Assembly (NCBI GenBank): GCA_009392915.1
Contig: CP045477.1
Span: 192,001-256,000 of the forward strand
Length of the DNA: 64,000 bases
Direction: 5' to 3'
DNA from: Candidatus Forterrea multitransposorum CG_2015-17_Forterrea_25_41
GTDB taxonomy: Archaea > Iainarchaeota > Iainarchaeia > Iainarchaeales > CSSED10-239
In this document: one piece after another, positions 155 to 44,300 of the stretch
Numbering within the stretch: position 1 is the first letter of the stretch
How the letters are laid out: each line of letters opens with the position of its first letter
The notes under the pieces: generated by a model
What the model was told of the DNA's origin: nothing
Databases searched by the model: none
Seen by the model: only the letters and a program-made list of their open reading frames with translations
Position numbers and translations under genes: made by a program

Positions 155-3100
155 TTAATTTTGATATTTATATCTTACAATAACAATTCCAGAACCACCA
201 TTTCCACCATTTGCTGATGAATTTGTTGCTGATCCGTTTCCACCATTTCCTGTGTTTGCAGCAGCAGAAGATGCATCTGAGTGAGCATCACCACCTTTAG
301 CATAAGTGTTTCCCCAAATGGTCATACCAGGACCTCCATTAGGTACTGTTCCAGGTCCTCCCGCTCCTCCTCCTCCACCAGCTCCAACATTAACAACAGA
401 GGTTGCACCAGGATATCCAAATCCTGTATTAGGATACCCATCATTTGTACTTGGTTGTGTTGCACTTCCACCATTTGCAGGCACTGCACTATAAAGGTTT
501 GCACCTCCACCTGAACCACCTGATGTACCATCTCTGGAAGGATTATCTCTTGATCCTCCACCACCACCACCATATGCAATTAAATTTTTAAATACAGAAT
601 TATTTCCATTATTTCCTGTAAAGTCTTGATTTGTAGAACCTGTTCCTCCTGCTCCTACAGTAACAGTAATATTTCCAGTACTTGAAAGTGTGTAGTCTTC
701 AACATATACAAGACCTCCAGCACCTCCTCCTCCAGGATTTCTTAAAGTATTTGTTCCTGCTTTTCCAGCACCTCCACCACCACCAACAACTAAAACATCT
801 ACTTTTCCCTCTCCTAATGTTGTTACATTAAATGTTCCACTTGATGTAAAAGTATGATATTTATAGTCTCCAGAAGTTGTAACTGTTCCTCCTGTTGCTT
901 CTAAATATCCTTGATTTATTGTTAAGTTTATAGATGCTCCTGCTGTTTGATATTGATCATTTACTATTAAAGTTATCTTATGTTCTCCTGATGATAGATT
1001 AGTTGTTGAAAAGTTACAAGTTGAACTTAAAGTTCCATCTATATTTGAATCCCAATAACATGAATGGCTTCCAGATGGATTTGTAATTGTTGAATTAAAA
1101 GTTAGGTTTTCGCCATAATTATGTGTTGATGAGTTTGAGGGAGTATCAATTGTAACTGATATTGGATTAGGTATGCTACGCATAAATATCCAAGATATAC
1201 CTACAATTCCAATTTCTTCAACTCTTAATAAAGGAATTGTACCATCGGGATCAAATGAAGAAATACTGACTGATGTAAAATCTCCACTTGTTCCTGTTAC
1301 AACTGTTGAATTATTAATTATTAAATTTCCTGAATTTGAAGAATAAGATGCAGCAGTAGATCCTAATCCATAATAGACTCTTAATTGGTTTATGTCACTA
1401 GGTCCATTCCATGTATTCATTGTAAGTAATCCATTATCTGCAGGTCCACTATAGAAAAATGATAAAAATTCAGGTCTTCTTGTATAACTTGCAAAATTAA
1501 CATTTACTCCATCATTATAATGTGTATAATAATCTAGATTATAACCATATGTAGATAGATCTGTAGTTAATATACGGTTACCATTCCATGCAGGATAAGA
1601 TGAGTCATAAGTATTATCTGTTGAAAATGAAGAATACAACATCCAACCTCCTCCATTATCTTCCATATTACAATAAATTTGAGTTGGAACTCCGTCTTTT
1701 AATATCCAATAAACTCCGTTTGTAGCACTTGGATTGTTATTTTTAATATACATTGCAGAAGGTGCTGCTTTTTCTGAAGAACTTCCATCTAAATCTATAA
1801 TTGTTATTGAAATATTTTTATCTATAGTTTGTTCTTGATCAGTAACAGATAATGTTATTGTATGTTCTCCAACTGTTAAACTACTTGTTGAAAAATCACA
1901 ATTACTTGATAAACTTCCATCTATAGATGATACCCAAGAACAACTATAACTTCCGTTTTCATTTTCTATTTGAGAATTAAAATCAATTGCTTCTCCAAAA
2001 CTGAATGTTTGTAAGTTTGTAGGAGAATTAATATTTATTGTAAGTTCTTCAACATATTCATTTTTAGTATTATCATAAATTGCTTTAATTTCATTTAAAT
2101 TTAAACTTCTGCCATATAGTCTATAGTCTGAAATCATTCCTTTAAAATATCTTGTATTTGTAGAATTTATTCCAAATTTAACTCCTCCACCTTGTGTTTC
2201 ATAACTATAAATTTCTTCTAATGTTTTTTCTAAGTTTCCATTAATATAACCTTTTAAAGTTTTTAATGTTTCATCATATGTAACTGTATAATTAATCCAT
2301 TTATTTTCTTCAACAGGATCTGAAAGCTCATAAGTTGAATATCCTCCATCTAAATCTCTCCATCTTATTTCCATTTTTTTATCAACAGGATTAATACTAA
2401 CTCTAAGATTATTTTTTTGAGACCAAAAGAAACTTTCATGTTCTAAACTTTGATTTTCTGTATAATATATCCATCCATTTATTGTAAATGAACTATAATC
2501 ACCTACATTTGAAACATTAATATAATCATTAGCTCCATCTAAATTTAATTTAGAACTACTATTCCAATTTGCAGTTCCAACAATACTTCCATTATTAGAA
2601 TTTCCTGAATAATCGTATACTGTGCTTCCTTCTCCTTCATCTATTTTCCAATATCCAATTATTTGATAATCAATACAGTCAAGTACATTATAGTTATTTG
2701 TTTTAATAGGTTTTACAATTTCTCTCCCTTTATCTGTATTTAATTTTAATATATAATTTTCTTCAGGAGCACATACAACATCTATTTCTTTAGTTTCTTT
2801 TTTTTCAATAGTTATTGGTTCTTCAAAAAATATATTTTTATTTAAATATTCTGTATCAACAGCATCTGATGCAATAAAATAACTAGTTAATACTAAATCT
2901 TGATTAATATTGTTGTTTGAAAGTACAATACTTTGATTTACAACTTCTTCAATTAAGATTTCATCTCCAATTCTTTGTATCTCAATTATAGGAATATTAT
3001 TATTTTTATCCACAACACTAAATCTTAATTCTTCAAGTCCAGGCATAATATCAATGTAGTTATAAAAAAGAATATTATTATTATAATCAATATTATAAAG

Positions 3101-3463
3101 TAGACTTGTTTCTTGTCTATTAATTATAAGTGATCCTATTTGGCTTTGTGTTTTTAGATTTTCAATACTTCTTTTATTTTTAATTTCTTGTCTTAAATAA
3201 AGATTACTTGAGTTATTATCAACTGTAATTGGGTCACTTAAATCTAAATAAACTTCTTTATAGCTTCCAACTTCTGAATCTTTTAAATCTGTTAAAATAT
3301 CATTAATATATGCTAAGTTATCTCTGTTGTTTTTCATTCTTTGTGAATCTTCTAGAGTTCCAAAATAATTCATTGCAAAATAAATAAATATACCTAAAAA
3401 TATAATACTTACAAAAAGAATTGCTATTCCTGAAAATAAAGATGTTACTCCTTTTTGATTCAT
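155..3463 (-). CDS. Pilin-like (class III signal peptide) multidomain adhesin: LamG + 2 PKD/Ig-like + fibrinogen-like + C-terminal Gly-rich domain
   Basis: The N-terminus MNQKG/VTSLFSGIAILFVSIIF is basic-Gly followed by a hydrophobic helix. LamG/ConA-like motif: GYWKIDEGEGSTVYDYSGNSNNGSIVG...LDGANDYINV...FTINGWIY. PKD-like modules: SYSCSWVSSIDGSL...GEHTITLSVTDQEQT and SHSCYWDSNIDGTL...GEHKITLIVNDQYQT. Fibrinogen-like motif: NGVYWILKDGVPTQIYCNMEDNGGGWMLY. C-terminal domain: FTSSGTFNVT...VDVLVVGGGGGAG... Its start overlaps the stop of the upstream gene by 1 nt (TAATG). Confidence 0.85.
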   Translation of the reverse strand: MNQKGVTSLFSGIAILFVSIIFLGIFIYFAMNYFGTLEDSQRMKNNRDNLAYINDILTDLKDSEVGSYKEVYLDLSDPITVDNNSSNLYLRQEIKNKRSIENLKTQSQIGSLIINRQETSLLYNIDYNNNILFYNYIDIMPGLEELRFSVVDKNNNIPIIEIQRIGDEILIEEVVNQSIVLSNNNINQDLVLTSYFIASDAVDTEYLNKNIFFEEPITIEKKETKEIDVVCAPEENYILKLNTDKGREIVKPIKTNNYNVLDCIDYQIIGYWKIDEGEGSTVYDYSGNSNNGSIVGTANWNSSSKLNLDGANDYINVSNVGDYSSFTINGWIYYTENQSLEHESFFWSQKNNLRVSINPVDKKMEIRWRDLDGGYSTYELSDPVEENKWINYTVTYDETLKTLKGYINGNLEKTLEEIYSYETQGGGVKFGINSTNTRYFKGMISDYRLYGRSLNLNEIKAIYDNTKNEYVEELTININSPTNLQTFSFGEAIDFNSQIENENGSYSCSWVSSIDGSLSSNCDFSTSSLTVGEHTITLSVTDQEQTIDKNISITIIDLDGSSSEKAAPSAMYIKNNNPSATNGVYWILKDGVPTQIYCNMEDNGGGWMLYSSFSTDNTYDSSYPAWNGNRILTTDLSTYGYNLDYYTHYNDGVNVNFASYTRRPEFLSFFYSGPADNGLLTMNTWNGPSDINQLRVYYGLGSTAASYSSNSGNLIINNSTVVTGTSGDFTSVSISSFDPDGTIPLLRVEEIGIVGISWIFMRSIPNPISVTIDTPSNSSTHNYGENLTFNSTITNPSGSHSCYWDSNIDGTLSSTCNFSTTNLSSGEHKITLIVNDQYQTAGASINLTINQGYLEATGGTVTTSGDYKYHTFTSSGTFNVTTLGEGKVDVLVVGGGGGAGKAGTNTLRNPGGGGAGGLVYVEDYTLSSTGNITVTVGAGGTGSTNQDFTGNNGNNSVFKNLIAYGGGGGGSRDNPSRDGTSGGSGGGANLYSAVPANGGSATQPSTNDGYPNTGFGYPGATSVVNVGAGGGGGAGGPGTVPNGGPGMTIWGNTYAKGGDAHSDASSAAANTGNGGNGSATNSSANGGNGGSGIVIVRYKYQN

Positions 3464-3993
3464 TATTCTTCACTTTTATTAAAATCTAATAATTCTATTT
3501 CTATAATTATTTTATTTTCATCAAGATTATAATCTTGATAACTAAAAACATAATTTGTTTGTCCTTGATTTAAATTAATTAAATTACAATCTATGTTTAT
3601 TTGGGAATTATTGTTTATTGTTTTTTTAAAATAGGCTCTATTTGATTCTTTACTAACTTCAATATCTTTTATTGTAACTAATTGATCATCTCTAATCTCT
3701 GAGTTAAAGATTATTTCTCCTCTGATTTCATTTTGATTACAATCAATCTCTAAGACTTCTGGATTATATATTGTAATTTCTTTTGCTGAAAATCTAGATT
3801 TTGAAATTTCTTGAAAAGTATTTGAAATTAAATCTATGTTTTCAATCATTTGATCAAAATTATATTTTTCTTGATTTTTTTCAATAGTATCTTGCACCAT
3901 ATAAAGTATGCTTGAAAGAATGGCTATACTTACAAATATATATAGAAAGTATGAAAATAAATTTGCTGCTCCTTTTTCTTTTCTTAAAAACAT
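3463..3993 (-). CDS. Small pilin-like protein (class III signal peptide)
   Basis: The N-terminus MFLRKEKG/AANLFSYFLYIFVSIAILSSILYMV is followed by a ~140-aa polar domain. It lies between two pilin-like adhesin genes and is translationally coupled to the downstream one. Confidence 0.7.
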   Translation of the reverse strand: MFLRKEKGAANLFSYFLYIFVSIAILSSILYMVQDTIEKNQEKYNFDQMIENIDLISNTFQEISKSRFSAKEITIYNPEVLEIDCNQNEIRGEIIFNSEIRDDQLVTIKDIEVSKESNRAYFKKTINNNSQINIDCNLINLNQGQTNYVFSYQDYNLDENKIIIEIELLDFNKSEE

Positions 3994-4005
3994 ATTTTAA
4001 AACCT

Positions 4006-6414
4006 TTATTCTATATTTAAATTTAAATTTTCAGTAATAGTTTGTTCTTGATCTGTCACTGATAATGTTATTGTGTGTTCTCCAACAGACAATGTTGAAA
4101 TATTAATATCACAATTATCTAAAGAATATTGATTATTATATAGTTTTGAAACATCTTCTTGATCTATTGCTTCATCAAAAATTAAAATATCATCCATTTT
4201 ACCATTAAAAAAATGATCATAAGTTCCAACAACTCCATTATAAGCTATAGCAGCACCAATTGCAACTGGCAAGCTATTTGATATTGATCCATAAGTTCCA
4301 ATAGGAACACTAGCATCAAGAATTCCATTAATATAAAAATTTAAATCTTGGTTGTCTTTATAAGACATAATAACATTATACCAATTATTTTGAGCATATA
4401 GAGAACCACAATTACTACAACTTTTATAGTTACTTTGAGCATCATCAATACCAGAATAAATATCCCAATTACTAGAAACATTATTAATCATTAATTGCCA
4501 ACCTGCATAACTTCCTCCGGCACCTCTTCCTCTAGTATTAATTATTCTTTGATATCCAGAACCAGTAGGATTTATCCATGTTGATACAGTAATTTCATCT
4601 AAATTTGAACTAATATTATTATCTAAAGTTGCATAGCTTGAAGTTCCATTAAAACTTAATGCATTATTTTCTCTTCCAAATCTGTCTGTTGTTCTAGTTA
4701 CATTAAATAAAGTTCCGTCAATATTCCCTATATTATCATAAATAGTATCTCCTGTAGTTTCTTCAAATCTATATTCTGCATATGGTTTTTGATATGTTAA
4801 ATTTCCATCAATTGATGATGCCCAAGAACAAGAATAATTTCCTACATTATTTGTAATATTTGTATCTATTTCTATATTATCTCCTAAAGTATATACATTT
4901 GAATCAATATTTATTTCTGCATTTAAAGATGGATTTTCTACAGTTATATTTTTTGTTTCAGTAATAGTTTGTTCTTGATCGGTCACTGATAAAGTTATGG
5001 TGTGTTCTCCAACAGACAATGTTGAAATATTAATATCACAATTATTTGAAGAATATTGATTATTATATAGTTTTGAAACATCAGAACTAGAAATTCCATT
5101 ATTAAAAATAATAATATCATCTAACTTTCCATTAAAAAAATGATTAAAAGTTCCATACACTCCATTATATGCAACTGATGTCCCAATTGCTGTTGGTAAG
5201 CTGTTTGTTATATTTCCATATGGATCTAAATTTACACTTTCATCTAATTGTCCATCAACATAAAAATTAAGATTATTATCTTCATCAAAAGACATAACAA
5301 AATGATACCATTTTCCAAGTGTCAAACTATTTCCACAAGTGTTACAACCAGTAAATGGACTTGTTGAAGAATCAACTCCTGAATAAAGATAAAAATTACT
5401 AGTTGTATCATTAATTAATATTTGCCATCCTTCAACATCTGAAGCTGCAGATCCTCTTGTGTTTATAATTCTCTGATATGTACTAGATCCATTTGATAAA
5501 AACCATCCTGATATTGCAAATCTATTAAGTTCTTGACTTATATTATTATCTAATAAAACATAGCTTGAAGTTCCATTAAAGCTTAAAGCCTTATTTTCTC
5601 TTCCAAATCTATCTGTAGTTCTTGTAATGTTATATCCATTACCATCAATATTACCTATTAAATCATAAATTATATTTCCTGAAGTTTCATTAAAATCCCA
5701 TCTTGCATAAGGTGTTTTACTTGGTATTAAGTTTCCATCAATTGATGATGCCCAAGAACAAGAATAACTTCCAACAGGGTTATTTACTTCTGATGTGAAA
5801 TTAATTGGTTCTGAAAATAAGAAAGAAGTTGCTTCTATTGGATTTGAAATATCTATAGTTGTCACAGTTTCTATTGGATTTAGATTTGGTCTTTCTTTTT
5901 GAAGATTTAATTTTTCAGAAGAATCAATTTCTCTTAAAAAACTTATTTTGTTTCTACTTATTTTTTTAATATAAATAATTGTTTTTGTGTTATTAAGATA
6001 TATTCCTTGTTCTATATCTATTCCATTGATGTCTAAACCAACAATTAATTTTTCAAATTCTCTAAAAGTATAAATTTCTCCTTCTCTAATTAATTGTCCT
6101 TCTTTATAATAATTTCCAGAAATATTATGAAATATTTCTATTTTATCTAAATTAGAATCTGCTTCAAAACTTAAACCATCAAGGTCTATTACAAAAGAGA
6201 CAACAGATCCATTTGAATTTTCTAAAACTTCTTGTATTTTTCCTTGAATTTCTTCAATATACATTCTAGATTCTTCAAATTTTTGTTGTGAATTATTTCT
6301 TTCAATTGCAGGAACAACTCCTTGATAAATAAGTCCTACAACAGCAACAATAATAAATATAACTAAGATATAACTTAAAATTTCAGAAGCTCCTCTCTGA
6401 TTTAGTCTTTTCAT
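4006..6414 (-). CDS. Pilin-like (class III signal peptide) adhesin with a tandemly duplicated PKD-like + LamG module
   Basis: N-terminus: MKRLNQRG/ASEILSYILVIFIIVAVVGLIY. Two LamG-type modules: ARWDFNETSGNIIYDLIGNIDG...ALSFNGTSSYVLLD...FAISGWF and AEYRFEETTGDTIYDNIGNIDG...ALSFNGTSSYATLD...ITVSTWI. Each module is preceded by SYSCSWASSIDGNL and followed by CDINISTLSVGEHTITLSVTDQEQTIT. Confidence 0.85.
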   Translation of the reverse strand: MKRLNQRGASEILSYILVIFIIVAVVGLIYQGVVPAIERNNSQQKFEESRMYIEEIQGKIQEVLENSNGSVVSFVIDLDGLSFEADSNLDKIEIFHNISGNYYKEGQLIREGEIYTFREFEKLIVGLDINGIDIEQGIYLNNTKTIIYIKKISRNKISFLREIDSSEKLNLQKERPNLNPIETVTTIDISNPIEATSFLFSEPINFTSEVNNPVGSYSCSWASSIDGNLIPSKTPYARWDFNETSGNIIYDLIGNIDGNGYNITRTTDRFGRENKALSFNGTSSYVLLDNNISQELNRFAISGWFLSNGSSTYQRIINTRGSAASDVEGWQILINDTTSNFYLYSGVDSSTSPFTGCNTCGNSLTLGKWYHFVMSFDEDNNLNFYVDGQLDESVNLDPYGNITNSLPTAIGTSVAYNGVYGTFNHFFNGKLDDIIIFNNGISSSDVSKLYNNQYSSNNCDINISTLSVGEHTITLSVTDQEQTITETKNITVENPSLNAEINIDSNVYTLGDNIEIDTNITNNVGNYSCSWASSIDGNLTYQKPYAEYRFEETTGDTIYDNIGNIDGTLFNVTRTTDRFGRENNALSFNGTSSYATLDNNISSNLDEITVSTWINPTGSGYQRIINTRGRGAGGSYAGWQLMINNVSSNWDIYSGIDDAQSNYKSCSNCGSLYAQNNWYNVIMSYKDNQDLNFYINGILDASVPIGTYGSISNSLPVAIGAAIAYNGVVGTYDHFFNGKMDDILIFDEAIDQEDVSKLYNNQYSLDNCDINISTLSVGEHTITLSVTDQEQTITENLNLNIE
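4030..4155. repeat. 126-nt near-identical intragenic repeat, copy 1 (pairs with 4957..5082)
   Basis: Manual alignment gives 121/126 identical positions to 4957..5082. It encodes ..VSKLYNNQYS..CDINISTLSVGEHTITLSVTDQEQTIT. All five differences are synonymous on the coding strand. Confidence 0.9.
4957..5082. repeat. 126-nt near-identical intragenic repeat, copy 2 (927 nt = 309 codons from copy 1)
   Basis: See copy 1. A more diverged third copy (~55 nt, tagtttgttcttgatcagtaacagataatgttattgtatgttctccaac) lies at about 1825..1880 in the neighbouring adhesin gene. Confidence 0.9.
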
Positions 6415-6739: not shown

Positions 6740-8188
6740 ATGCACGAAGATCTTTTTAACACCCTAAACCCACATCAAAAAGCATATATTAATTTTGAAA
6801 TTCCAAATGTTAAAAATGGAGAATATATGTTATGTGCTTTCCATTTAAGACCTGGAGGAGATTTAAATATCTTACAAGCAGCTTGTGAAACAGCAGCTGA
6901 ATCTTCAACTGGTACAAATTTTTTAGTAAACACAGAAACTCCTTTTGCAAGAGAGATGAATGCTTTAGTTTATAAATTAGATTTAGAAAAAAGTTTAGTA
7001 TGGATAGCATATCCTTGGAGACTTTTTGATAGAGGAGGAAATGTTCAAAATATCTTAACATACATTGTAGGAAATGTTTTAGGTATGAAAGAAGTTTCTG
7101 CAATTAAACTTTTAGATGTTTGGTTTCCACCAGCTATGCTTGAACAATACGATGGACCTTCCTATACTTTAGATGATATGAGAAAATATTTAGATGTTTA
7201 TGATAGACCAATTTTAGGAACAATTATAAAACCAAAAATGGGTTTAACTTCAGCAGAATATGCAGAAGCATGCTATGATTTCTGGGTTGGTGGAGGAGAT
7301 TTTGTTAAAAATGATGAACCTCAAGCAAACCAAGATTTCTGTCCATATGATAAAATGGTAAAACATGTAAAAGAAGCTATGGATAAAGCTGTAAAAGAAA
7401 CTGGTCATAAAAAAGTACATTCTTTCAATGTTTCAGCTGCAGATTATGATACAATGATTGAAAGATGTGAAATGATTGTTAATGCAGGTTTTGAAAAAGG
7501 ATCTTATGCATTTTTAATAGATGGAACTACTGCAGGTTGGATGGCAGTTCAAACTTTAAGACGTAAATATCCTGATGTTTTCCTTCATTTCCATAGAGCA
7601 GGACATGGAGCATATACAAGACCTGAAAATCCAATTGGTTTTTCTGTTTTAGTATTATCTAAATTTGCAAGACTTGCAGGAGCTTCTGGTATTCATACAG
7701 GAACTGCAGGTGTAGGAAAAATGGCAGGTACTCCAACAGAAGATATTACAGCTGCAACTGGTATTTTAAAATTAGTCTCAGAAGGACATATTTTCCATCA
7801 ATCATGGTCAACTGTTCCTGAAAAAGATTTAGATGTTGTAAAGCTTGCACAAGAGGATGAAGCTCATCATGTTATCTTAGAAGATGATAGTTGGAGAGGT
7901 CTTAAAAAATGTACTCCAATAATCTCTGGTGGTCTAAATCCAACTCTTCTTAAACCATTTATTGATTTAATGGGTGGAGTTGATTTTATAACAACTATGG
8001 GTGCTGGTTGTCATGCTCATCCAAAAGGTACACAAGCAGGCGCTAAGGCTTTAGTTCAAGCATGTGAAGCATACCAGAAAGGAATTTCTATTGAAGAATA
8101 TTCAAAAGATAGACCTGAGCTTGCAGAAGCTATTGAGTTTTTTACAAAGAAAAAGCATGTTGATAACTTAAAGAAGGAGTTTTCTTAA
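6740..8188 (+). CDS. rbcL: Ribulose-1,5-bisphosphate carboxylase/oxygenase large subunit, form II/III
   Basis: Form II-type active-site motifs: TIIKPKMGL, GGGDFVKNDEPQANQ, FHRAGHGA, SGIHTGT, TPIISGG. There is also a ~29-aa insertion (STVPEKDLDVVKLAQEDEAHHVILEDDSWRGLK) where form II has a short GGMKA-like segment. Confidence 0.95.
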   Translation: MHEDLFNTLNPHQKAYINFEIPNVKNGEYMLCAFHLRPGGDLNILQAACETAAESSTGTNFLVNTETPFAREMNALVYKLDLEKSLVWIAYPWRLFDRGGNVQNILTYIVGNVLGMKEVSAIKLLDVWFPPAMLEQYDGPSYTLDDMRKYLDVYDRPILGTIIKPKMGLTSAEYAEACYDFWVGGGDFVKNDEPQANQDFCPYDKMVKHVKEAMDKAVKETGHKKVHSFNVSAADYDTMIERCEMIVNAGFEKGSYAFLIDGTTAGWMAVQTLRRKYPDVFLHFHRAGHGAYTRPENPIGFSVLVLSKFARLAGASGIHTGTAGVGKMAGTPTEDITAATGILKLVSEGHIFHQSWSTVPEKDLDVVKLAQEDEAHHVILEDDSWRGLKKCTPIISGGLNPTLLKPFIDLMGGVDFITTMGAGCHAHPKGTQAGAKALVQACEAYQKGISIEEYSKDRPELAEAIEFFTKKKHVDNLKKEFS

Positions 8189-18972: not shown

Positions 18973-20421
18973 TTGTGTTTTATTATGATTTTCAAACAAT
19001 CAAAGAATCAAATTAAAAGAGATTTCTCTTTTTCTGTAAAAGATGGGATTTTTTGGGTACTAATGAATTCTATAGCTATAATTTTTTTAGTTCCATATTT
19101 AGTTTCTTTAGGTGCAAATTCTTTTCAAATAGGTCTTTTAAATTCATTTCCTTTATTTATAACTTCTTTTTTAGTTTTAATATCTTATAAACTTTTAAAA
19201 ATATTTAAATCTAAAAAACATGCAGTTGTAATTTTTTTAACATTACAAGCTTTAATGTGGATTCCTCTTGCAATGGCTTATTTCTTTTTTCCAAATTCAA
19301 TTACTATTTGGATTATAATTTTAATTTATACAATAATAACTGCTTTAGGAACAATTATTCATCCAATTTACATGGACTGGATAAGAAAACTTTTTCCAAC
19401 AAAACAAATGGGTTCTTATATTGCAAAAAAAAATATAATTTTAGAGTTTGTTTCAATTTTTCCAATTTTTTTAATAGGTTATATTTTAGATGTTATTTTC
19501 AAATCAAATACTTTTATTGGTTATTCAATAATTTTTGTATTTGCAGGAATATTTAGATATTTTTCAACAAGATTTTTAAATAAAATGAGTGAAACAGAAG
19601 ATAAAGAAGCTATTTTAAAACTTGTAAAAGAAAAAGAAAAAATTCCTCTTTTAAAATCTTTTAAAGATGAAGTTATAAAAGATAAGTCTTTTTTAAAGTT
19701 TTTAATTTTTATCATTCTATCATATATTGGTATTCACTTAGCAACTTCTTATGTTTCTTATTTTGTTTTAAACTTTTTAAATTATTCTTCTACTCAATAT
19801 GTTCTATGGAAAATTTCTTTTATTTTAGGAACTGTTTTAAGTTTAAGTTATTGGGGTTATATTTCAGATAAATATAGTCCTGTAAAAGTTTTACAAATAA
19901 GTACTTTATTTATGCCTTTATTTTTAATAATTCCTGCATTCTTTTATTCTAGTTATTCTTTAATGATTTTTTCAATTTTTGTTGGAGGTGTTATTTTTGG
20001 TGCTTTTAATTTAGGGGTTTTAGATTATCTTTTTAAAAATATAAAAAGAGATTTAATAGGTCATAGTTCTTATTTTTTAATAATACAAGCAAGTTCAATT
20101 TTTATTGGAACTCTTCTAGGTTCTGGAATAATTTATTTAGCAACAAAATTTTATTCTTCAGAATTCAAGGCTTTAATATTTTTATTTGTATTTACAATAT
20201 TTTTTAGATACATAGCATTTTTCTATTCTTTAAAGCTTAAAAAATTAGAAAGAAGAGATCTTAGATTTTTTAAATATGTTATTTTTCAAAGACCTGTTCT
20301 TTATGGTTTACTTCAATTTACTCATCTTTCACATGAAGAAAAAAAATTACTACTTGATTTAAAATTAAAATCTGAATTTAAAAAAATTAAATCAAAATTA
20401 TTTAATCAGAAAAAACAGTAG
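18973..20421 (+). CDS. MFS-type transporter
   Basis: About 12 hydrophobic helices with a central cytoplasmic loop (NKMSETEDKEAILKLVKEKEK), which is the major-facilitator layout. The likely start is ATG 18985. Substrate unknown. Confidence 0.6.
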   Translation: MCFIMIFKQSKNQIKRDFSFSVKDGIFWVLMNSIAIIFLVPYLVSLGANSFQIGLLNSFPLFITSFLVLISYKLLKIFKSKKHAVVIFLTLQALMWIPLAMAYFFFPNSITIWIIILIYTIITALGTIIHPIYMDWIRKLFPTKQMGSYIAKKNIILEFVSIFPIFLIGYILDVIFKSNTFIGYSIIFVFAGIFRYFSTRFLNKMSETEDKEAILKLVKEKEKIPLLKSFKDEVIKDKSFLKFLIFIILSYIGIHLATSYVSYFVLNFLNYSSTQYVLWKISFILGTVLSLSYWGYISDKYSPVKVLQISTLFMPLFLIIPAFFYSSYSLMIFSIFVGGVIFGAFNLGVLDYLFKNIKRDLIGHSSYFLIIQASSIFIGTLLGSGIIYLATKFYSSEFKALIFLFVFTIFFRYIAFFYSLKLKKLERRDLRFFKYVIFQRPVLYGLLQFTHLSHEEKKLLLDLKLKSEFKKIKSKLFNQKKQ

Positions 20422-22924
20422 CTGTTTTTCCTCCATCCCATGTAATTCTTGGTCTTATTTTTAGAAGCATTACTTTTTCGGAGTTATCATCAATCATTAT
20501 TGCATATCCTTGTTCTTTTGGCATTTGTGCATAATATTTATCCATAGGTATATTTAGATAACTAGGTCTAATTGATGAAACTGCTTGAATATCTTCTTGT
20601 GCTGTCATTCTCATACTTAAGAAAAGATCACATTGAGAGATTGTTTCAGAATGTAGTTTATTTGGTCTTTGGGTTGCAAGGATTAATGAAAGTCCTGGTT
20701 GCCTTCCAACTCTTATCCATTGCAATAAAACATCTAAAGCCATACTAGGTCTGTCTTGAGGCATAAACATGTGTGCTTCATCTATTACCATCCAGACAAT
20801 AGGCATTTCACTTGTTTTTCTTTTTCCTTCAAGAAGATTTTTTTCTTCTTCTTTTCTATAAAGCATTCTTTCTTCATATAGTCTTTTTCCTAAAAGTCCA
20901 ACTATAAGTTCTTGAACTGATTCCATTCCAATTGCTTGTTTATATGTTGAAACATCAATTGTTGTAATTGTTCCTGGCTTTGCAAATTCTTTCATAGTTG
21001 TTCCTGATTTTGAAAAAAGACCCCATGATTTTGCAATTTTCATTCTATTTATTAAAGAGTCTTTAATTTCTTTTGTTGTTTCTGAATCTGTTAAAGCTAC
21101 TTTAATAATATCATCAATATCATAAAGATTTCCAAGTTTTTGTTTTAAAATATCAATACTTCTTGACAGAAGTCCAGATTCTGGATCTCTCCAAGTTAGT
21201 CTAAAAAGACCAAGCCAGTCTTCTAAATCTACTTGTGAAGATCTTATTGAAAAAGGTGAATCAAAAGGTATTTCTTTTTCTTTATAAAAATCTTGTTTTC
21301 CTGCAGGAATCATATTTCTAATACCAATACCATCTGCCTTTAAATCCCATTTATCTAATAGTTCTTTAGGTACTTCTTTATTTGGATAGTTCATGGTCCA
21401 AAAAATACCTACAGTGTCAATAACAATTACAGAAAGTCTATCTTTAACATCAAAAGGTTGTCTTGCAAATTCTTCCATAACAACAGATAGAGTATAACTG
21501 TTGTGTATTATTATATTATTTGCAATAAAATTATGGTTTTTTAAAACTGTTATGTCATAAACTTCAAATTTTCCTTTTAAATGATTAATTTCTTTAATCT
21601 CATCCCAATAGATATCTGATGTTGCTATTTTTTCAAGTTCTTTATTATTTTCTTTTTTTGCAATAATTAATAATTTTTCTCTTGAAGGTGCATAATTTAT
21701 TGATGATCTAATTGCTTTTGGTGTTTTATAATTAAATTCTACACCAATATTTTTCCATCCGTTTAAAGGTTTAAAATTATTCCAAATTTCTTTAGGAATT
21801 GTATCAATATTTGGATTTTTAATTTTATTTTTATATTTTAATGTTTTTTTTTCTTTTTCTCCAATAAATCCAATTTCTTTAATATATTTTTCTACATCTT
21901 GTTCTAATATTTCAAGTTCATAACTATCTCTTTTTTTAGTTTTCTTTTTTCTAATTTTTGAAAGTATTTCTAGTTTTAATAAGATTCCTTGAATCTGTAG
22001 TATCATTTTTTTAGAAGAAGATGAGTAACTTATTCTACATCTTTTTTCTTTTTCAAAATAAATTGTTCCATCACAACTAAACATTCTATTTAAAAATAAA
22101 GCAAGGTTTTCTTTTTTTTGTTTAAATATAATTTCTGGAATTTCTTTTTGATATGATAATTTATTATACATTCCAATTTGTTTAATATATTCTTTTAAAC
22201 TTCCTTTCTGGTATGGATTTTCTTTTCCTTTTTTCCATATAACTTTGTAATTATATTTTCCTATTTCTTTTAAGTCTAGTTCTTTATCAAATAATTTTAT
22301 TGAAGATCTAAAATCATTTACAATTTTGTCATCACCATTACAAAAAAGTACAACTCTATTTGAAAGATGCCCTTCTGCAAGAAGATATGCAATTAATTTA
22401 ATATTTTCTTTTTTTAATTTATCTTTACCTATATTATTTAATTTTCTAGGTGTTGCAATTCTTGACTTTACTTTAAGATCTTTTGCTTCTTTCCAACCTT
22501 CTAAAGTAAGTAATGGATGTTCTAAAGTTAATTTTATTTCTTTTCCACTTCTAAGTTTAATTTCTAAAAGTTCATTTACTTTTCTTTTAAAAAAGTTTTC
22601 TTTTTTAGCTTTTTCTATTTTTAAATTATCATTAATAGACATTACTTTAAGATTTGTATTTTCTAAATCTTTTATTTCAATTTCTCTTCCATCTTCTAAA
22701 GCTATTAAAGTGTCTCCAGTTACACATTTTCCGCCGCCCCTTTTTCCGCAGATAATCATTACATGTGATCTTGAAAGATCCATTAATACTTTTTTACCTA
22801 AAACAGGGTCATCTCCTCCAGAGACAACTACTTTTCCTAAATATCCAGTTGCTTTTTCTTTGTATTTATCAAGATCGCTTTGTTTTCTTCCAACTACAAT
22901 ATTATCTGTAAAATCTAAACTCAT
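20402..22924 (-). CDS. HerA-like (DUF87/COG0433, FtsK-HerA superfamily) ATPase interrupted by an intein
   Basis: The spliced Walker A would read ICGKRGGGK-SYTLSVVMEE. Walker B: WMVIDEAHMF. HerA-typical block: LATQRPNKLHSETISQCDLFLSMRMTAQEDIQAV. C-terminus: KIRPRITWDGG. The exteins are 66 + 365 aa. Confidence 0.85.
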   Translation of the reverse strand: MSLDFTDNIVVGRKQSDLDKYKEKATGYLGKVVVSGGDDPVLGKKVLMDLSRSHVMIICGKRGGGKCVTGDTLIALEDGREIEIKDLENTNLKVMSINDNLKIEKAKKENFFKRKVNELLEIKLRSGKEIKLTLEHPLLTLEGWKEAKDLKVKSRIATPRKLNNIGKDKLKKENIKLIAYLLAEGHLSNRVVLFCNGDDKIVNDFRSSIKLFDKELDLKEIGKYNYKVIWKKGKENPYQKGSLKEYIKQIGMYNKLSYQKEIPEIIFKQKKENLALFLNRMFSCDGTIYFEKEKRCRISYSSSSKKMILQIQGILLKLEILSKIRKKKTKKRDSYELEILEQDVEKYIKEIGFIGEKEKKTLKYKNKIKNPNIDTIPKEIWNNFKPLNGWKNIGVEFNYKTPKAIRSSINYAPSREKLLIIAKKENNKELEKIATSDIYWDEIKEINHLKGKFEVYDITVLKNHNFIANNIIIHNSYTLSVVMEEFARQPFDVKDRLSVIVIDTVGIFWTMNYPNKEVPKELLDKWDLKADGIGIRNMIPAGKQDFYKEKEIPFDSPFSIRSSQVDLEDWLGLFRLTWRDPESGLLSRSIDILKQKLGNLYDIDDIIKVALTDSETTKEIKDSLINRMKIAKSWGLFSKSGTTMKEFAKPGTITTIDVSTYKQAIGMESVQELIVGLLGKRLYEERMLYRKEEEKNLLEGKRKTSEMPIVWMVIDEAHMFMPQDRPSMALDVLLQWIRVGRQPGLSLILATQRPNKLHSETISQCDLFLSMRMTAQEDIQAVSSIRPSYLNIPMDKYYAQMPKEQGYAIMIDDNSEKVMLLKIRPRITWDGGKTATVFSD
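21500..22726 (-). mobile_element. Intein (409 aa) with LAGLIDADG homing-endonuclease domain, inserted in the P-loop
   Basis: It starts at Cys67 (GGGK/CVTGDTLIAL) and has block B LTLEHPLL. LAGLIDADG motifs: LIAYLLAEGHL and FLNRMFSCDGTI. The C-terminal splicing block is VYDITVLKNHNFIANNIIIHN/S. Codon positions were checked against the DNA (TGT at 22726..22724, AAC-AGT at 21502..21497). Confidence 0.9.
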
Positions 22925-41362: not shown

Positions 41363-44300
41363 ATGGTTAAAGATAAAAATAATTTAGGCTCAAATGAAAA
41401 CAATGAAAATAAACAAAATATTTTTTCAAGATTTTATAATTATCTTGAAGATAAATATTCTTCTTTATCAAACTGGCTTACAGAAAAAGGAATACCATTA
41501 AATAATTTAAATAATTATTTAGAGGAAAAAGGACTTCCTGCTTTTGCAATAGTTGCATCTATTTTATTATTATTAATCTTTATAATTGTTTTCTTAATTA
41601 TCTTTTCTTTTTCCAGTCAATCAACATTAATTTTTTCTGTTAAAGATTATTCTGGACTTTCAATCAATGATGCTTTTTTAAAAATTACAAATAGTTCAGG
41701 TAAGGAAATCTTTTCAGGAACTGTAAATGATACTGATGTTAAAAAATTAAAATTAAAATTAGGAGAATTATATTCTTTTAAATCAACTAAAGATGGATAT
41801 CCTGATTTTTCAAAATCAATAACTATTACTGATAAAGATCAAAAAGTACAAATTACTTTTTCAGAATCAATTGAGTATGGTATATTAAGAATAAAATTAA
41901 TAGATAGAGATAATAAAGGAATAATTACTTCAGGAACTGCGATCGCAAGATATTCAATTAATAATGCTCCTGAGTCTACAGAAAACATTGTAAATATTGC
42001 AAATGAACATTTTATTACTTTAGAAGTTCCAATGAATAAAGATATTGAACTTTTAGTTAGTGCAGATGGTTATGAAGATTTTAAAGAAACAAATTTTAGA
42101 ATAACTTTAGAAAATCAAGAAAAAGTAATTGAAATGGATATTTCTTCTTTATCTTTTGAAGGTAAAAGTCAAGTTACTTTTGTTGTTTTAGATACAGAAC
42201 AAAATCCAATTGATGGTGCTTTAGTAAGCATATATAATCTTGGAGATGAATTATTAGATTCAAAAAATACAATTGATGGAAGAGCTTTATCTTTTATTGA
42301 TAGTGGTTCTACAATATCTTATAAAGTTGAAAAAGAAGGTTATAGAACATTTGTAAGTGATCCTGAAGTTTCTTTTAGAATTACAAAATCTGAAATAACT
42401 TATAATGTTACTTTAGAAGAGGGTGGAAATTTTTTAGATGTGTTTGTAAAATCTGGTTCTAATTTTTTAGCTCTTGGAGATGTTGCAATTACTGTTTATG
42501 ATTTAAATAATAATATTATTAATTCTGGAAATACAGATGATTTAGGAAATTTAAAATTAACTGGTCTTTCTGATAAAGCACCAATTGTTGTAACTGCTTG
42601 TAAAGAAGATTTCCTTTGTGAAAATTTAACAGTAGATCTTTTAGAAAAAAGTTCAGTTGAGTTTACTTTAGAAAGAATAGATGTAACAAATAGTGCTATT
42701 CTGTCTGTTTTTGTTGTTGATGAAAAAAATTTACCGATCTCAAAAGCTTTTATAAAAATCTATCAATTACTTGAAGATGATAAAGAAGTTCCATACAACA
42801 CATCTCTTCAAACTGATCTTACAGGTTCTCTTTCAATACCTCTAAGAGTTGGAGATTCTTTTATAGTTTATTCATTAGTTGGAGAAGTTCAATATTTTGA
42901 AGAAATTACAATTGATGCTTTAAGAGAAAATAAAATAATTTTTGTAATGGATAATGCTTCTAAAATAATTAAATTAGATCTTTATGATGAAAATGGTTTT
43001 AAACTTACTTCAGGTTCTTTACTTGTAAAAACAAAAGATGGAACTGTTCTTTTTGATGGTAATTTATCTGAAACTGATCAAATAAGTTTTATTTCAGAAG
43101 GCTATAAAGATTTATATGCTGAATACACAGATGTTAATGGTAATAAATCTTCAATTAATTTTAATGCTGATGAATCTGAGTCAGATGGATATATAAGACT
43201 TGATTTTAATAAAGAAGTTAATTTAACAGATTATCCTGTAATTGAGTTTTCAGGAATTGTAGATTCTAAAGGAGTTAAATCAAATTTTGTAACAATAGGT
43301 AAAGAATATTATTTAATTTTTGATGTTTTATTCCCAGAAAATACTTATAAAGGACAAGTACATATTAGAGCTGGTGATGATACTCAAGTTGATGTTGAAG
43401 AAATGAGTTATGGTATAACTGGTTTTTCTGCAATGGATATTTATGATTTTAAATATGGTACAACATATAATAGTTCTCCTCTTCCAGGTTTAATGAATAT
43501 TGATCTTTTAAATGAAGGTTCTTCTCAAGTTTTAAATAAATGGCTTGAACTTAAATGGAATAGTGATCTTCCTTTAGGTAATAAACAAATCAAAGTAAAA
43601 ATAAATGTTATAGATGATTCTTATTCAAAATTAACTTTTAAATATAGAACTTTATTTGAAGAAAATAAATTATACTATAGAGATCCAGTTGACTCTTTAT
43701 TAAACCAAAGTTATTCTTCATCTCAAAAAGGTGCTTTATATGCAGATACAAAAGAAGTAAATATTGATGTTTATAATGTTCCTTTAGATTGTGAAGGTTC
43801 TCAATGTTTGTCATATACTTTTATTGATTCAAAAGGAAATGAATTTTCAAAAAATGATTTCTATGCTGTAAGAGATGAAACTTATTTTTTAAAAGTTAGT
43901 CTTTATTCTTTAGATAATAAACAATTAGATCTTTTAGCAGAAACTTCAAAAAGTTTCCCTTTAATTTCATTTGGTTCTTTTTCAGATAATCTTTATCAAA
44001 ATGAAATAATAAATGATAATTCTTTATTTGAAATTTCAAGAGATGGTTTTTTACTTTCTGAAAATTCTTTAAAAAATATTTATCTTTCATTTATCTCAAA
44101 AGATATTGGTGCTGCATATATTGATCTTAAAGCAACAGATGTTATTTTAGGAAATGAAATTTTAAACAATAGATTAAGTTTTAATGTTTATGATAAAAAA
44201 GAAATGAATGTTTTAGTTTCTCCAAGTAATTATGTTGATTATGGATCAAATTTTACTGTTGATGTTTTAGATTCAGTTTCTCTTGAACCTATTACAGATG

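What the first reader, a model, noticed from the sequence alone, without database searches (positions are those of the whole stretch)
1190..1760. Fibrinogen-related-domain-like motif in an archaeal pilin-like adhesin
Seen in sequence: ...PSATNGVYWILKDGVPTQIYCNMEDNGGGWMLYSSF... closely mirrors the signature of the A-subdomain of fibrinogen C-terminal/ficolin-type domains (G.Y.I......VYCDM...GGGWT(L/V)). This comparison is from my memory of the family. The downstream ~150 aa are not obviously fibrinogen-like to me. Such domains are typical of animal innate-immunity lectins and only sporadic in prokaryotes. An archaeal, pilus-displayed version would be notable as a glycan-binding tip.
Basis: partly seen in the sequence, partly recalled or inferred. 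Interest (0 to 1): 0.5.

Follow-up and report, generated by a model that had tools for sequence, protein, structure and literature searches.

The report
Fibrinogen-like head on swappable archaeal adhesin module
The fibrinogen-like motif is real, but it is only a roughly 55-residue "head" (a prokaryotic domain NCBI already curates) on a sugar-binding-module-like beta-sandwich typical of phage tail-fibre tips, here fitted as a strain-swappable cassette into a pilin-like surface protein of a tiny DPANN archaeon.

Summary
The motif exists as described: aa 578-613 of a 1102-aa ORF at window 155-3463, minus strand. It is not chance. It matches NCBIfam NF040941 (GGGWT_bact, "fibrinogen-like YCDxxxxGGGW domain") at 50-52 bits against a cut-off of 30. 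A profile of its family hits intelectin, tenascin and fibrinogen in the PDB (E 1.5e-6 to 4e-3).

It is not a full fibrinogen-related domain (FReD).
- Every FReD-type match here and in relatives stops at about position 47-71 of the 221-position Pfam profile.
- The domain has one cysteine, so the FReD disulfides cannot form.

The unit is a conserved 204-aa domain (aa 559-762). Its closest relatives (about 54% identity) are C-terminal modules of phage tail-fibre-locus proteins.

The host protein has a predicted type-IV-pilin fold at its N-terminus. It sits in a three-gene pilin-like cluster of an Iainarchaeota (DPANN) genome. In conspecific strains this exact domain is replaced by a LamG cassette, with breakpoints inside flanking PKD-like repeats.

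Most likely function, by inference: an interchangeable, probably glycan-binding adhesion module. I rate it a new variant of a known kind, of moderate interest.

The parts
155..3463 (-). Gene C: 1102-aa modular pilin-like surface protein that contains the finding
   Evidence: ORF list. Pfam: Laminin_G_3 at aa 309-460, Gly_rich_2 at aa 873-1099, weak PKD hits. NF040941 at aa 570-609.
2963..3463 (-). Pilin-like N-terminal module, aa 1-167: class III signal-peptide-like leader MNQKG, a hydrophobic stretch, one long helix and a beta head
   Evidence: AF2 model pLDDT 86.4, with helix 3-61 and then nine strands. Paralogous to the N-termini of genes A and B at 21-24% identity. This is the conserved part in L013, L014 and L095. 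No pilin family model passes its threshold.
2084..2539 (-). LamG / concanavalin-A-like domain, aa 309-460
   Evidence: PF13385, 63.5 bits.
1796..2047 (-). PKD/Ig-like repeat 1, aa 473-556. It holds the left breakpoint of the cassette swap.
   Evidence: Weak PKD hits. Nucleotide repeat families D4/D5. Alignment to L095 breaks at window 1837.
1625..1789 (-). FReD-superfamily 'head', aa 559-613: a short helix, a beta-hairpin ending in YCNM, and the GGGWMLYSSF strand
   Evidence: NF040941 at 50-52 bits. PF00147 positions 11-47. Family profile versus intelectin, tenascin and fibrinogen. DSSP elements H16-22, E29-35, E38-45 and E53-59 of the model.
1178..1624 (-). Beta-sandwich body of the same domain, aa 614-762, ending in ...GISWIFMR
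1100..1837 (-). Strain-variable cassette, aa 543-788. In conspecific contigs it is replaced by a PKD repeat with a nested LamG_3.
   Evidence: blastn of window against L095: flanks 97.7% and 93.7% identical, interior unrelated. Translation of the L095 gene C.
908..1159 (-). PKD/Ig-like repeat 2, aa 769-852. It holds the right breakpoint.
   Evidence: PF00801 at aa 783-848, 18.9 bits, below threshold. Repeats D4/D5.
167..847 (-). Gly_rich_2 C-terminal domain, aa 873-1099
   Evidence: PF21722, 83.6 bits. phrog_2295 E=1e-42 and phrog_863 'tail fiber assembly' E=2.4e-13.
3463..3993 (-). Gene B: 176-aa pilin-like protein with no added domains
   Evidence: ORF. N-terminus MFLRKEKG followed by a hydrophobic stretch. 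Aligned with gene C's N-domain. Conserved in L013, L014 and L095.
4006..6414 (-). Gene A: 802-aa pilin-like protein carrying two PKD-plus-LamG_3 cassettes
   Evidence: PF13385, 126 bits, two stretches. The added domains (window 3997-5888) are absent in L013 and L095, where gene A is 180 aa.

Best explanation
Window 1178-1789 (minus strand, aa 559-762 of a 1102-aa protein) encodes one compact all-beta domain.

Its first ~55 residues are homologous to the N-terminal segment shared by fibrinogen-related domains, intelectins and fibrillar-collagen C-propeptides. NCBIfam curates this element for prokaryotes as NF040941 GGGWT_bact. The remaining ~150 residues form a beta-sandwich of the carbohydrate-binding-module type, not FReD subdomains B and P.

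The domain family occurs mainly as the C-terminal module of proteins in phage tail-fibre loci.

Here it is one of several binding-type modules (LamG, this domain, Gly_rich_2) separated by PKD-like spacers. They are grafted onto a type-IV-pilin-like N-terminal module, in a three-gene pilin-like cluster next to RuBisCO in an Iainarchaeota (DPANN) genome.

Shown: the homology limits, the fold, the phage relatives, the organism, the pilin-like fold, and the replacement of this exact domain by a LamG cassette in conspecific strains with breakpoints in the PKD repeats.

Inferred: the protein is processed by the prepilin peptidase and displayed on the cell surface or on a pilus. The domain binds an external ligand, most likely a glycan. 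Cassette exchange changes binding specificity between strains.
For: - Motif and homology.
- Discrete 204-aa domain conserved end to end, with 435 homologs and many stand-alone proteins ending at ...WIFMR.
- Exhaustive scan: 5185 clusters; full-length matches are nearly always C-terminal.
- Profile-profile: only the head is shared with five other GGGWT subgroups.
- Phage context: Peptidase_S74, T4 gp13/neck and LamG neighbours; a T7-like tail and terminase; six IMG/VR loci; PHROG hits.
- Organism.
- Pilin-like module. A Peptidase_A24 gene lies about 8 kb beyond the window edge on a contig whose sequence matches the C-terminal part of gene C (aa 544-1102) at 100% protein identity.
- Cassette swap and variable added domains.
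- Precedent for modular pilins with lectin modules: PMC8179133, PMC9934059.
Against:
- No pilin family model passes its threshold (DUF7289 23.4 bits against 27 for gene A; UpsA E=0.14).
- No pilus ATPase or platform gene was found among the window ORFs scanned against Pfam; five ORFs of at least 100 aa were not scanned.
- The domain is internal here, not at the distal end as in its phage relatives.
- In conspecific strains gene C carries a TAA at codon 168, so the added-domain region may not always be expressed.
- The genome-collection scan used a single peptide pattern, so its zero hits say little about cellular distribution.
Confidence: 0.72

Rival explanations
1. It is a complete but divergent fibrinogen-related (ficolin-type) lectin domain that binds acetylated glycans through a P-subdomain-like pocket.
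For: - The head is significantly FReD-like.
- The domain length of about 204 aa is close to a FReD's roughly 220.
- All subgroups end in a hydrophobic strand plus Arg/Lys. From my memory, this resembles the ...MKIRP end of FReDs and the ...LLFYR end of intelectin-1.
Against: - PF00147 matches never extend past profile position 47-71 of 221, here or in ten relatives.
- PDB profile hits cover only profile positions 19-83.
- The model is all-beta after one short helix.
- The domain has a single cysteine, so neither FReD disulfide can form (sequence).
Confidence: 0.04
2. The domain is a structural, oligomerisation or folding module rather than a ligand-binding one. It would act as a trimerisation nucleus, as the collagen C-propeptide does, or as a tail-fibre assembly element.
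For: - Weak COLFI similarity of the head, and Foldseek hits to the procollagen C-propeptide trimer.
- Relatives sit directly after Peptidase_S74 chaperone-domain proteins.
- The adjacent Gly_rich_2 part matches a PHROG annotated 'tail fiber assembly'.
Against: - The COLFI hits are below threshold and cover only the head.
- The family is typically the extreme C-terminal module of long phage fibre-like proteins, the usual position of receptor-binding tips (established knowledge).
- In conspecific strains it is exchanged for a LamG lectin-type module, which suggests functional equivalence with a binding module.
Confidence: 0.15
3. The protein is not a pilus subunit. It is a membrane-anchored or S-layer-associated surface protein that keeps its N-terminal helix as an anchor, or it is a remnant of an integrated viral tail-fibre gene.
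For: - No pilin HMM passes its threshold.
- No assembly ATPase or platform gene was found among the window ORFs scanned against Pfam; five ORFs of at least 100 aa were not scanned.
- The C-terminal half has strong PHROG matches.
- A phage-type integrase lies several kb away in L095.
- Archaeal class III signal peptides are also used by non-pilus surface proteins (established knowledge).
Against: - Three tandem paralogues share a leader, a hydrophobic helix and a beta-head module. One of them, gene B, is a bare 176-aa pilin-sized protein.
- The AF2 model has the pilin 'lollipop' shape.
- The cluster is syntenic next to RuBisCO in genomes whose RuBisCO is only 91% identical to the window's, so it is chromosomal and not a recent prophage.
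- A Peptidase_A24 gene is nearby.
Confidence: 0.2
4. The motif is a chance resemblance in an AT-rich, low-complexity ORF.
For: The window has 25% GC, and Asn/Ile/Ser-rich proteins give many spurious similarities.
Against: - The curated HMM hit is 20 bits above its cut-off, E=1.7e-13.
- The motif is invariant or nearly so across homologs from unrelated contigs of 34-55% GC.
Confidence: 0.01

Closest known systems
NCBIfam NF040941 GGGWT_bact (fibrinogen-like YCDxxxxGGGW domain)
   Same: The head at aa 570-609 matches nearly the whole 46-position model at 50-52 bits against a cut-off of 30. All relatives tested also match.
   Different: The model covers only the ~45-residue head. It says nothing about the 150-aa beta-sandwich body that defines this particular family. 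Its name refers to bacteria, whereas this copy is in a DPANN archaeon and its nearest relatives are phage-encoded.
Fibrinogen-related domains (Pfam PF00147; ficolins, tachylectin-5A, tenascin, angiopoietin)
   Same: The N-terminal helix, the beta-hairpin ending in YC(D/N)M and the GGGW(T/M)L strand are shared.
   Different: There are no B or P subdomains and no FReD disulfides. The fold of the remainder differs. The Ca2+ and acetyl-group pocket that makes FReDs lectins has no counterpart here.
Intelectins / X-type lectins (PDB 4wmq, 4wmo)
   Same: These are the best PDB sequence hits of the family profile (E 1.5e-6). Like this domain, they share only the FReD-like N-terminal part and have a divergent body (the structural description of intelectins is from my own knowledge).
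   Different: Foldseek gives TM of only 0.24-0.27. The intelectin body contains helices and Ca2+ sites, whereas this one is a plain beta-sandwich.
Beta-sandwich carbohydrate-binding modules (CBM29, CBM35, CBM16, CBM22, CBM61; also reelin and MAM domains)
   Different: Identity is 9-14% and no CBM sequence family matches. No known CBM carries a FReD-type head.
Modular type IV pilins (Streptococcus sanguinis PilB with a vWA module and PilC with a concanavalin-A-like lectin module; PMC8179133, PMC9934059)
   Same: An N-terminal pilin module has functional binding modules grafted behind it. A small cluster of minor-pilin-like genes is present. The added domains include a LamG/ConA-like lectin module.
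   Different: Those pilins are bacterial, and the survey in the paper read does not mention archaea. Here there are four added modules plus spacers, totalling 1102 aa. The modules resemble those of phage tail-fibre-locus proteins and are exchanged between conspecific strains.

Membership tests
NF040941 GGGWT_bact | Score at or above the curated cut-off (30 bits) over the 46-position model | tested here: met
   50.3 bits on the whole protein and 52.3 bits on the excised region, model positions 2-45.
Fibrinogen-related domain (PF00147) | N-terminal A-subdomain signature: a helix, a hairpin ending in YCDM, and the GGGWT strand | tested here: met
   PF00147 positions 11-47 aligned, at 17-19 bits here and 25-35 bits in relatives. 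Family profile versus tenascin, fibrinogen and angiopoietin gives E 4.5e-5 to 5e-3.
Fibrinogen-related domain (PF00147) | Pfam gathering score (22 bits) reached, and a match spanning the ~220-residue profile including the B and P subdomains | tested here: not met
   17.1-19.3 bits, below 22. Coverage ends at position 47 of 221 here and at 46-71 in ten relatives.
Fibrinogen-related domain (PF00147) | FReD fold of the whole domain on structure comparison | tested here: not met
Fibrinogen-related domain (PF00147) | Conserved disulfides: helix Cys to YCDM Cys, and the P-subdomain pair | tested here: not met
   Only one Cys (Cys598) lies in aa 559-762. The helix position is Ser-Ala.
Fibrinogen-related domain (PF00147) | Ca2+ site and acetyl-group binding pocket in the P subdomain | tested here: not met
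   No region aligns to profile positions above 71. The body has a different fold.
Type IV pilin-like proteins (archaeal class III signal peptide) | A short charged leader ending in Gly/Ala, then about 20 hydrophobic residues | tested here: met
   MNQKG|VTSLFSGIAILFVSIIFLGIFIYF in gene C. KG|AANLF... and RG|ASEIL... in genes B and A.
Type IV pilin-like proteins (archaeal class III signal peptide) | 'Lollipop' fold: an N-terminal helix of about 50-60 residues carrying a beta-sheet head | tested here: met
   AF2 on a six-sequence alignment gives pLDDT 86.4, helix 3-61 and nine strands at 68-164. No fold search was left to confirm it against solved pilins.
Type IV pilin-like proteins (archaeal class III signal peptide) | Match to a curated pilin family model | tested here: not met
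   Only sub-threshold hits: DUF7289 at 23.4 against 27 bits (gene A), UpsA at E=0.14 (gene A), and nothing for gene C.
Type IV pilin-like proteins (archaeal class III signal peptide) | Prepilin peptidase and assembly machinery in the genome | tested here: inconclusive
   A Peptidase_A24 gene lies on contig L001, whose overlap with gene C (aa 544-1102) is identical at protein level, about 8 kb beyond the window edge. No T2SSE/T2SSF-type ATPase or platform was found among the window ORFs scanned against Pfam; five ORFs of at least 100 aa were not scanned. The rest of the genome was not available.
Type IV pilin-like proteins (archaeal class III signal peptide) | Incorporation into a filament | not testable with these tools
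   This needs proteomics of sheared filaments or immunogold/cryo-ET.
Carbohydrate-binding modules (beta-sandwich type) | Beta-sandwich/jelly-roll fold | tested here: met
Carbohydrate-binding modules (beta-sandwich type) | Sequence membership in a CBM family, or demonstrated glycan binding | tested here: not met
   There is no Pfam or NCBIfam CBM hit at E<=10 on the excised region. Binding is not testable here.

The most novel reading that the evidence does not exclude
A DPANN archaeon displays ligand-binding modules of the kind found in phage tail-fibre-locus proteins on type-IV-pilin scaffolds. It diversifies them within one species in two ways: by recombination between PKD-like spacer repeats (GGGWT/beta-sandwich cassette versus LamG cassette; added domains present versus absent in gene A), and by a nonsense on/off polymorphism placed exactly at the junction between the pilin module and the added domains (GAA/TAA at codon 168). 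This would be a strain-level host- or surface-recognition switching system analogous to phage tail-fibre diversification. The FReD-like head would then be an ancient, portable folding or framing element shared by animal lectins, collagen propeptides and phage tail-fibre-locus modules.
Probability: 0.3. Interest if true: 0.7.

Novelty: new variant of a known kind. Interest (0 to 1): 0.45.

Why it matters
How DPANN archaea recognise and attach to partner cells or surfaces is largely unknown. A chromosomal pilin-like cluster whose binding modules are exchanged between conspecific strains gives concrete candidates for specificity determinants. Those modules have their closest relatives in phage tail-fibre loci.

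For the FReD field, the result sharpens what 'prokaryotic fibrinogen-like domains' are. At least in this family, and in five other subgroups compared, only the ~55-residue head is shared, and it sits on different bodies. Such hits should therefore not be read as ficolin-type lectins or as evidence of transfer of whole animal FReDs.

Tried and rejected
- **Pfam PF00147 on the whole protein.** No hit at E<=10; only a sub-threshold hit on the excised region. I rejected 'full FReD'.
- **AlphaFold database search (afdb50).** The library was unavailable, so annotated AFDB neighbours were not seen.
- **BFVD viral structure search.** It gave only weak partial matches, TM below 0.4, and was uninformative beyond showing cyanophage proteins annotated as fibrinogen/collagen NC1 that share the head.
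- **GTDB genome scan for the family.** Zero confirmed hits. It used a single peptide pattern, so I do not read this as absence from cellular genomes.
- **Metagenome scan.** Only nine short loci, which added little.
- **Recent horizontal transfer from phage.** The domain region is 30.7% GC, against 22-26% for the gene's N-terminal part, while the phage loci are 34-55% GC. The small excess is explained by amino-acid composition, so there is no evidence of recent transfer.
- **Literature searches for prokaryotic or phage FReD-like domains**. I found nothing specific, only a table entry for 'fibrinogen-like coiled coil protein' among phage host-recognition genes (PMC3909814).
- **Pilin HMMs**. No significant hit.
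- **Pilus assembly genes in the window**. None found among the ORFs scanned; five ORFs of at least 100 aa were not scanned.
Full report
**Observation**

The quoted peptide is present. It is aa 578-613 of a 1102-aa ORF on the minus strand (window 155-3463; motif at window 1625-1732). The finding's span 1190-1760 equals aa 568-758. The window has 25% GC.

**Is the resemblance real?**

Yes.
- NCBIfam holds a curated model for exactly this element, NF040941 GGGWT_bact, "fibrinogen-like YCDxxxxGGGW domain". It matches aa 570-609 at 50.3-52.3 bits against a cut-off of 30 (E=1.7e-13).
- Pfam Fibrinogen_C (PF00147) is seen only on the excised region and below threshold: 17.1-19.3 bits against 22, profile positions 11-47 of 221.
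- A 10-sequence profile of the domain's own family hits PDB sequences of intelectin-1 (E=1.5e-6), XEEL, tenascin, fibrinogen beta, angiopoietin and ficolin-3. It always does so through profile positions about 19-83 only.
- In ten relatives PF00147 passes its threshold (25-35 bits) but covers only profile positions 5-57, or 71 in one case.

The head is therefore homologous to the N-terminal part of the FReD, intelectin and COLFI domains. Nothing after it is.

**The unit**

- A search with aa 555-775 returned proteins aligned over 81-94% of the query. Many are stand-alone proteins of 197-265 aa that end exactly at ...GI(A/V)GISWIFMR.
- The domain is thus a discrete 204-aa unit, aa 559-762.
- A profile search gave 435 hits.
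- An exhaustive HMMER scan of 1.84 billion representatives gave 5185 clusters at E<=1e-3 and 50 at E<=1e-30. Full-length matches lie almost always at the extreme C-terminus of the protein. Many giant proteins match only the head, up to 15 times.
- By hhalign, the family shares only the head (54-86 columns, probability above 99%) with five other GGGWT-bearing subgroups. It shares its full length with one subgroup.
- All subgroups nevertheless end in a hydrophobic or aromatic strand plus Arg/Lys. From memory, this recalls the ...MKIRP end of FReDs and the ...LLFYR end of intelectin-1. I treat this as a lead only.

**Structure**

- AlphaFold2 on a 52-sequence alignment gave pLDDT 95.8 and pTM 0.91. 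The model has one short helix (model residues 16-22), a hairpin (29-35 and 38-45), the GGGW strand (53-59) and eleven more strands.
- Foldseek against the PDB agrees. CBM35/Xyn30D score E about 2e-4 with target TM 0.5. Intelectin-1 scores E 3.8e-3 with TM 0.27. The procollagen C-propeptide scores E 4e-3 with TM 0.35. No fibrinogen or ficolin is in the top 50.
- BFVD gave only weak partial matches. The AFDB library was unavailable.
- The domain has a single cysteine, and the FReD helix cysteine is replaced by Ser-Ala. The FReD disulfides are therefore absent.

Conclusion: a FReD-superfamily head on a CBM-like beta-sandwich body, not a FReD.

**Where the family lives**

- The closest relatives (about 54% identity) are phage-encoded.
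- P0018 lies between LamG_3 proteins on a 79-kb contig that also carries Peptidase_S74, T4 gp13 and T4 neck-protein genes.
- P0001 lies directly after a Peptidase_S74 protein.
- P0020 (LamG plus this domain) lies two genes downstream of a Phage_T7_tail protein, with one small ORF between, and near a T7-type terminase.
- Six IMG/VR contigs carry the family.
- The head matches phrog_1325, phrog_10681 and phrog_15727, the last annotated 'virion structural protein'. Gene C aa 755-1097 (PKD plus Gly_rich_2) matches phrog_2295 (E=1e-42) and phrog_863, 'tail fiber assembly'.
- Other full-length family members mostly have no signal peptide.
- The GTDB scan found none, but it used only one peptide pattern.

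**The host protein and organism**

- The RuBisCO at window 6740-8188 is 99% identical to that of Candidatus Iainarchaeum sp. STF1_257 and 91% identical to that of Iainarchaeum bin_363. Neighbouring genes fit a DPANN archaeon.
- Gene C reads, in order: a pilin-like module (aa 1-167), a linker, LamG_3 (309-460), PKD-like repeat 1 (473-556), the GGGWT/beta-sandwich domain (559-762), PKD-like repeat 2 (769-852) and Gly_rich_2 (873-1099).
- Upstream are gene B (176 aa, pilin-sized) and gene A (802 aa, a pilin-like module plus two PKD/LamG cassettes).
- All three start with a short charged leader ending in (K/R)G followed by a hydrophobic stretch. Their N-domains align at 21-24% identity.
- AF2 of gene C aa 1-170 gives pLDDT 86.4, with one helix at 3-61 followed by nine strands. 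This is the pilin 'lollipop' shape.
- No pilin HMM is significant. No assembly ATPase or platform gene was found among the window ORFs scanned against Pfam; five ORFs of at least 100 aa were not scanned.
- A Peptidase_A24 gene lies about 8 kb beyond the window edge on a contig that encodes the C-terminal part of gene C (aa 544-1102) at 100% protein identity.
- The architecture corresponds to the 'modular pilins' described in bacteria, such as S. sanguinis PilB with a vWA module and PilC with a concanavalin-A-like lectin module (PMC8179133, PMC9934059).

**Strain variation**

This was the most informative by-product. The three-gene cluster is syntenic next to RuBisCO in related genomes, but only the pilin-like modules are conserved.
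- In L014, gene C is 355 aa (N-domain plus two PKD repeats). Gene A carries repeats that look to me like DUF285-type repeats; this was not tested against a family library.
- In conspecific contigs L095-L098 (97-98% nucleotide identity), window 1100-1837 (aa 543-788) is replaced by a PKD repeat with a nested LamG_3. That span covers the end of PKD1, the whole GGGWT domain and the start of PKD2. The flanks are 97.7% and 93.7% identical.
- The breakpoints fall in PKD-like repeats that are conserved at nucleotide level within and between genes A and C: repeat families D4 and D5, with up to 87-94% identity.
- The added domains of gene A (window 3997-5888) are absent in L013 and L095.
- Contig L001 starts at aa 544 and contig L013 ends at aa 256 of gene C. 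I infer that the assemblies break at this variable locus.
[quoted passage not shown] The remaining 1020 codons stay open.

**Mechanism (inferred)**

- The protein is probably processed at Gly5 and displayed on the cell surface or incorporated into a filament through its pilin module.
- The GGGWT/beta-sandwich domain is one of several interchangeable ligand-binding modules. Three points favour a glycan-binding role:
  - its CBM-like fold;
  - the usual position of the family as the distal module of proteins in phage tail-fibre loci;
  - its allelic replacement by a LamG lectin-type module.
- The FReD-type binding site cannot be invoked, because the P subdomain is absent.
- A structural or trimerisation role remains a reasonable rival.

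**Verdict**

- It is a new variant of known kinds: an NF040941-headed domain, and a modular pilin.
- Interest is moderate, driven mainly by the phage-like, strain-swappable cassette architecture in a DPANN archaeon.

Noticed in passing
L095 10502-10504 (also L096, L097, L098); corresponds to window 2957-2959, codon 168 of gene C: Four conspecific contigs from different samples carry TAA where the window has GAA (Glu168). The position is exactly the end of the conserved pilin-like module, and the remaining ~1020 codons of the frame stay open. This could be a recent knockout, an on/off polymorphism or read-through.
   Followed up: partly
window 3997-5888 (gene A added domains) versus L013 1303-1845 and L095 8926-9468: Gene A is 802 aa here, with two PKD-plus-LamG_3 cassettes. 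It is only 180 aa (bare pilin-like module) in assemblies that are 95-99% identical. In L014 its added domain is instead a repeat that looks like a DUF285-type repeat by eye (not tested against a family library).
   Followed up: partly
window 932-1076, 1814-1958, 4027-4086, 4797-4846, 4954-5013, 5727-5776: PKD-like repeat segments (the ...GEHTITLSVTDQEQTI... and ...CSW.SSIDG.L... stretches) are conserved at nucleotide level, up to 87-94%, within and between genes A and C. In gene A and in L095 gene C, LamG_3 is nested inside a PKD-like repeat.
   Followed up: partly
L001 start (gene C aa 544) and L013 end (gene C aa 256): Two independent assemblies break inside gene C. One break lies exactly at the left cassette breakpoint, which suggests population heterogeneity at this locus.
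   Followed up: no
window 20402-22924 (-): An 840-aa HerA/FtsK-like ATPase is interrupted by an intein that carries a LAGLIDADG homing-endonuclease domain (Intein_splicing 108 bits, LAGLIDADG_3 55 bits).
   Followed up: no
window 41363-49378, 51298-58269, 58297-63900 (+): Three giant ORFs (2671, 2323 and 1867 aa) have only small CarboxypepD_reg, SpaA or Big_1-type Ig-like hits near their N-termini. They are probably giant surface proteins and are otherwise unannotated.
   Followed up: no
window 6740-8188 (+): A RuBisCO large-subunit homologue sits directly beside the pilin-like cluster. It is 78-84% identical to homologues in MAGs labelled as CPR bacteria (SR1/Absconditabacteria, Peregrinibacteria) as well as to those of DPANN and methanogen archaea.
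   Followed up: no
L014 3466-4263 (-): In the related Iainarchaeum genome, a 265-aa RCC1-like repeat protein follows the short gene C where the window has the added domains of gene C. It is possibly another added-domain variant encoded as a separate ORF.
   Followed up: no
proteins P0126, P0127, P0128: Giant proteins of 3100-4500 aa contain 14-15 copies of only the GGGWT head segment (profile positions about 57-127). Their origin and context are unknown.
   Followed up: no
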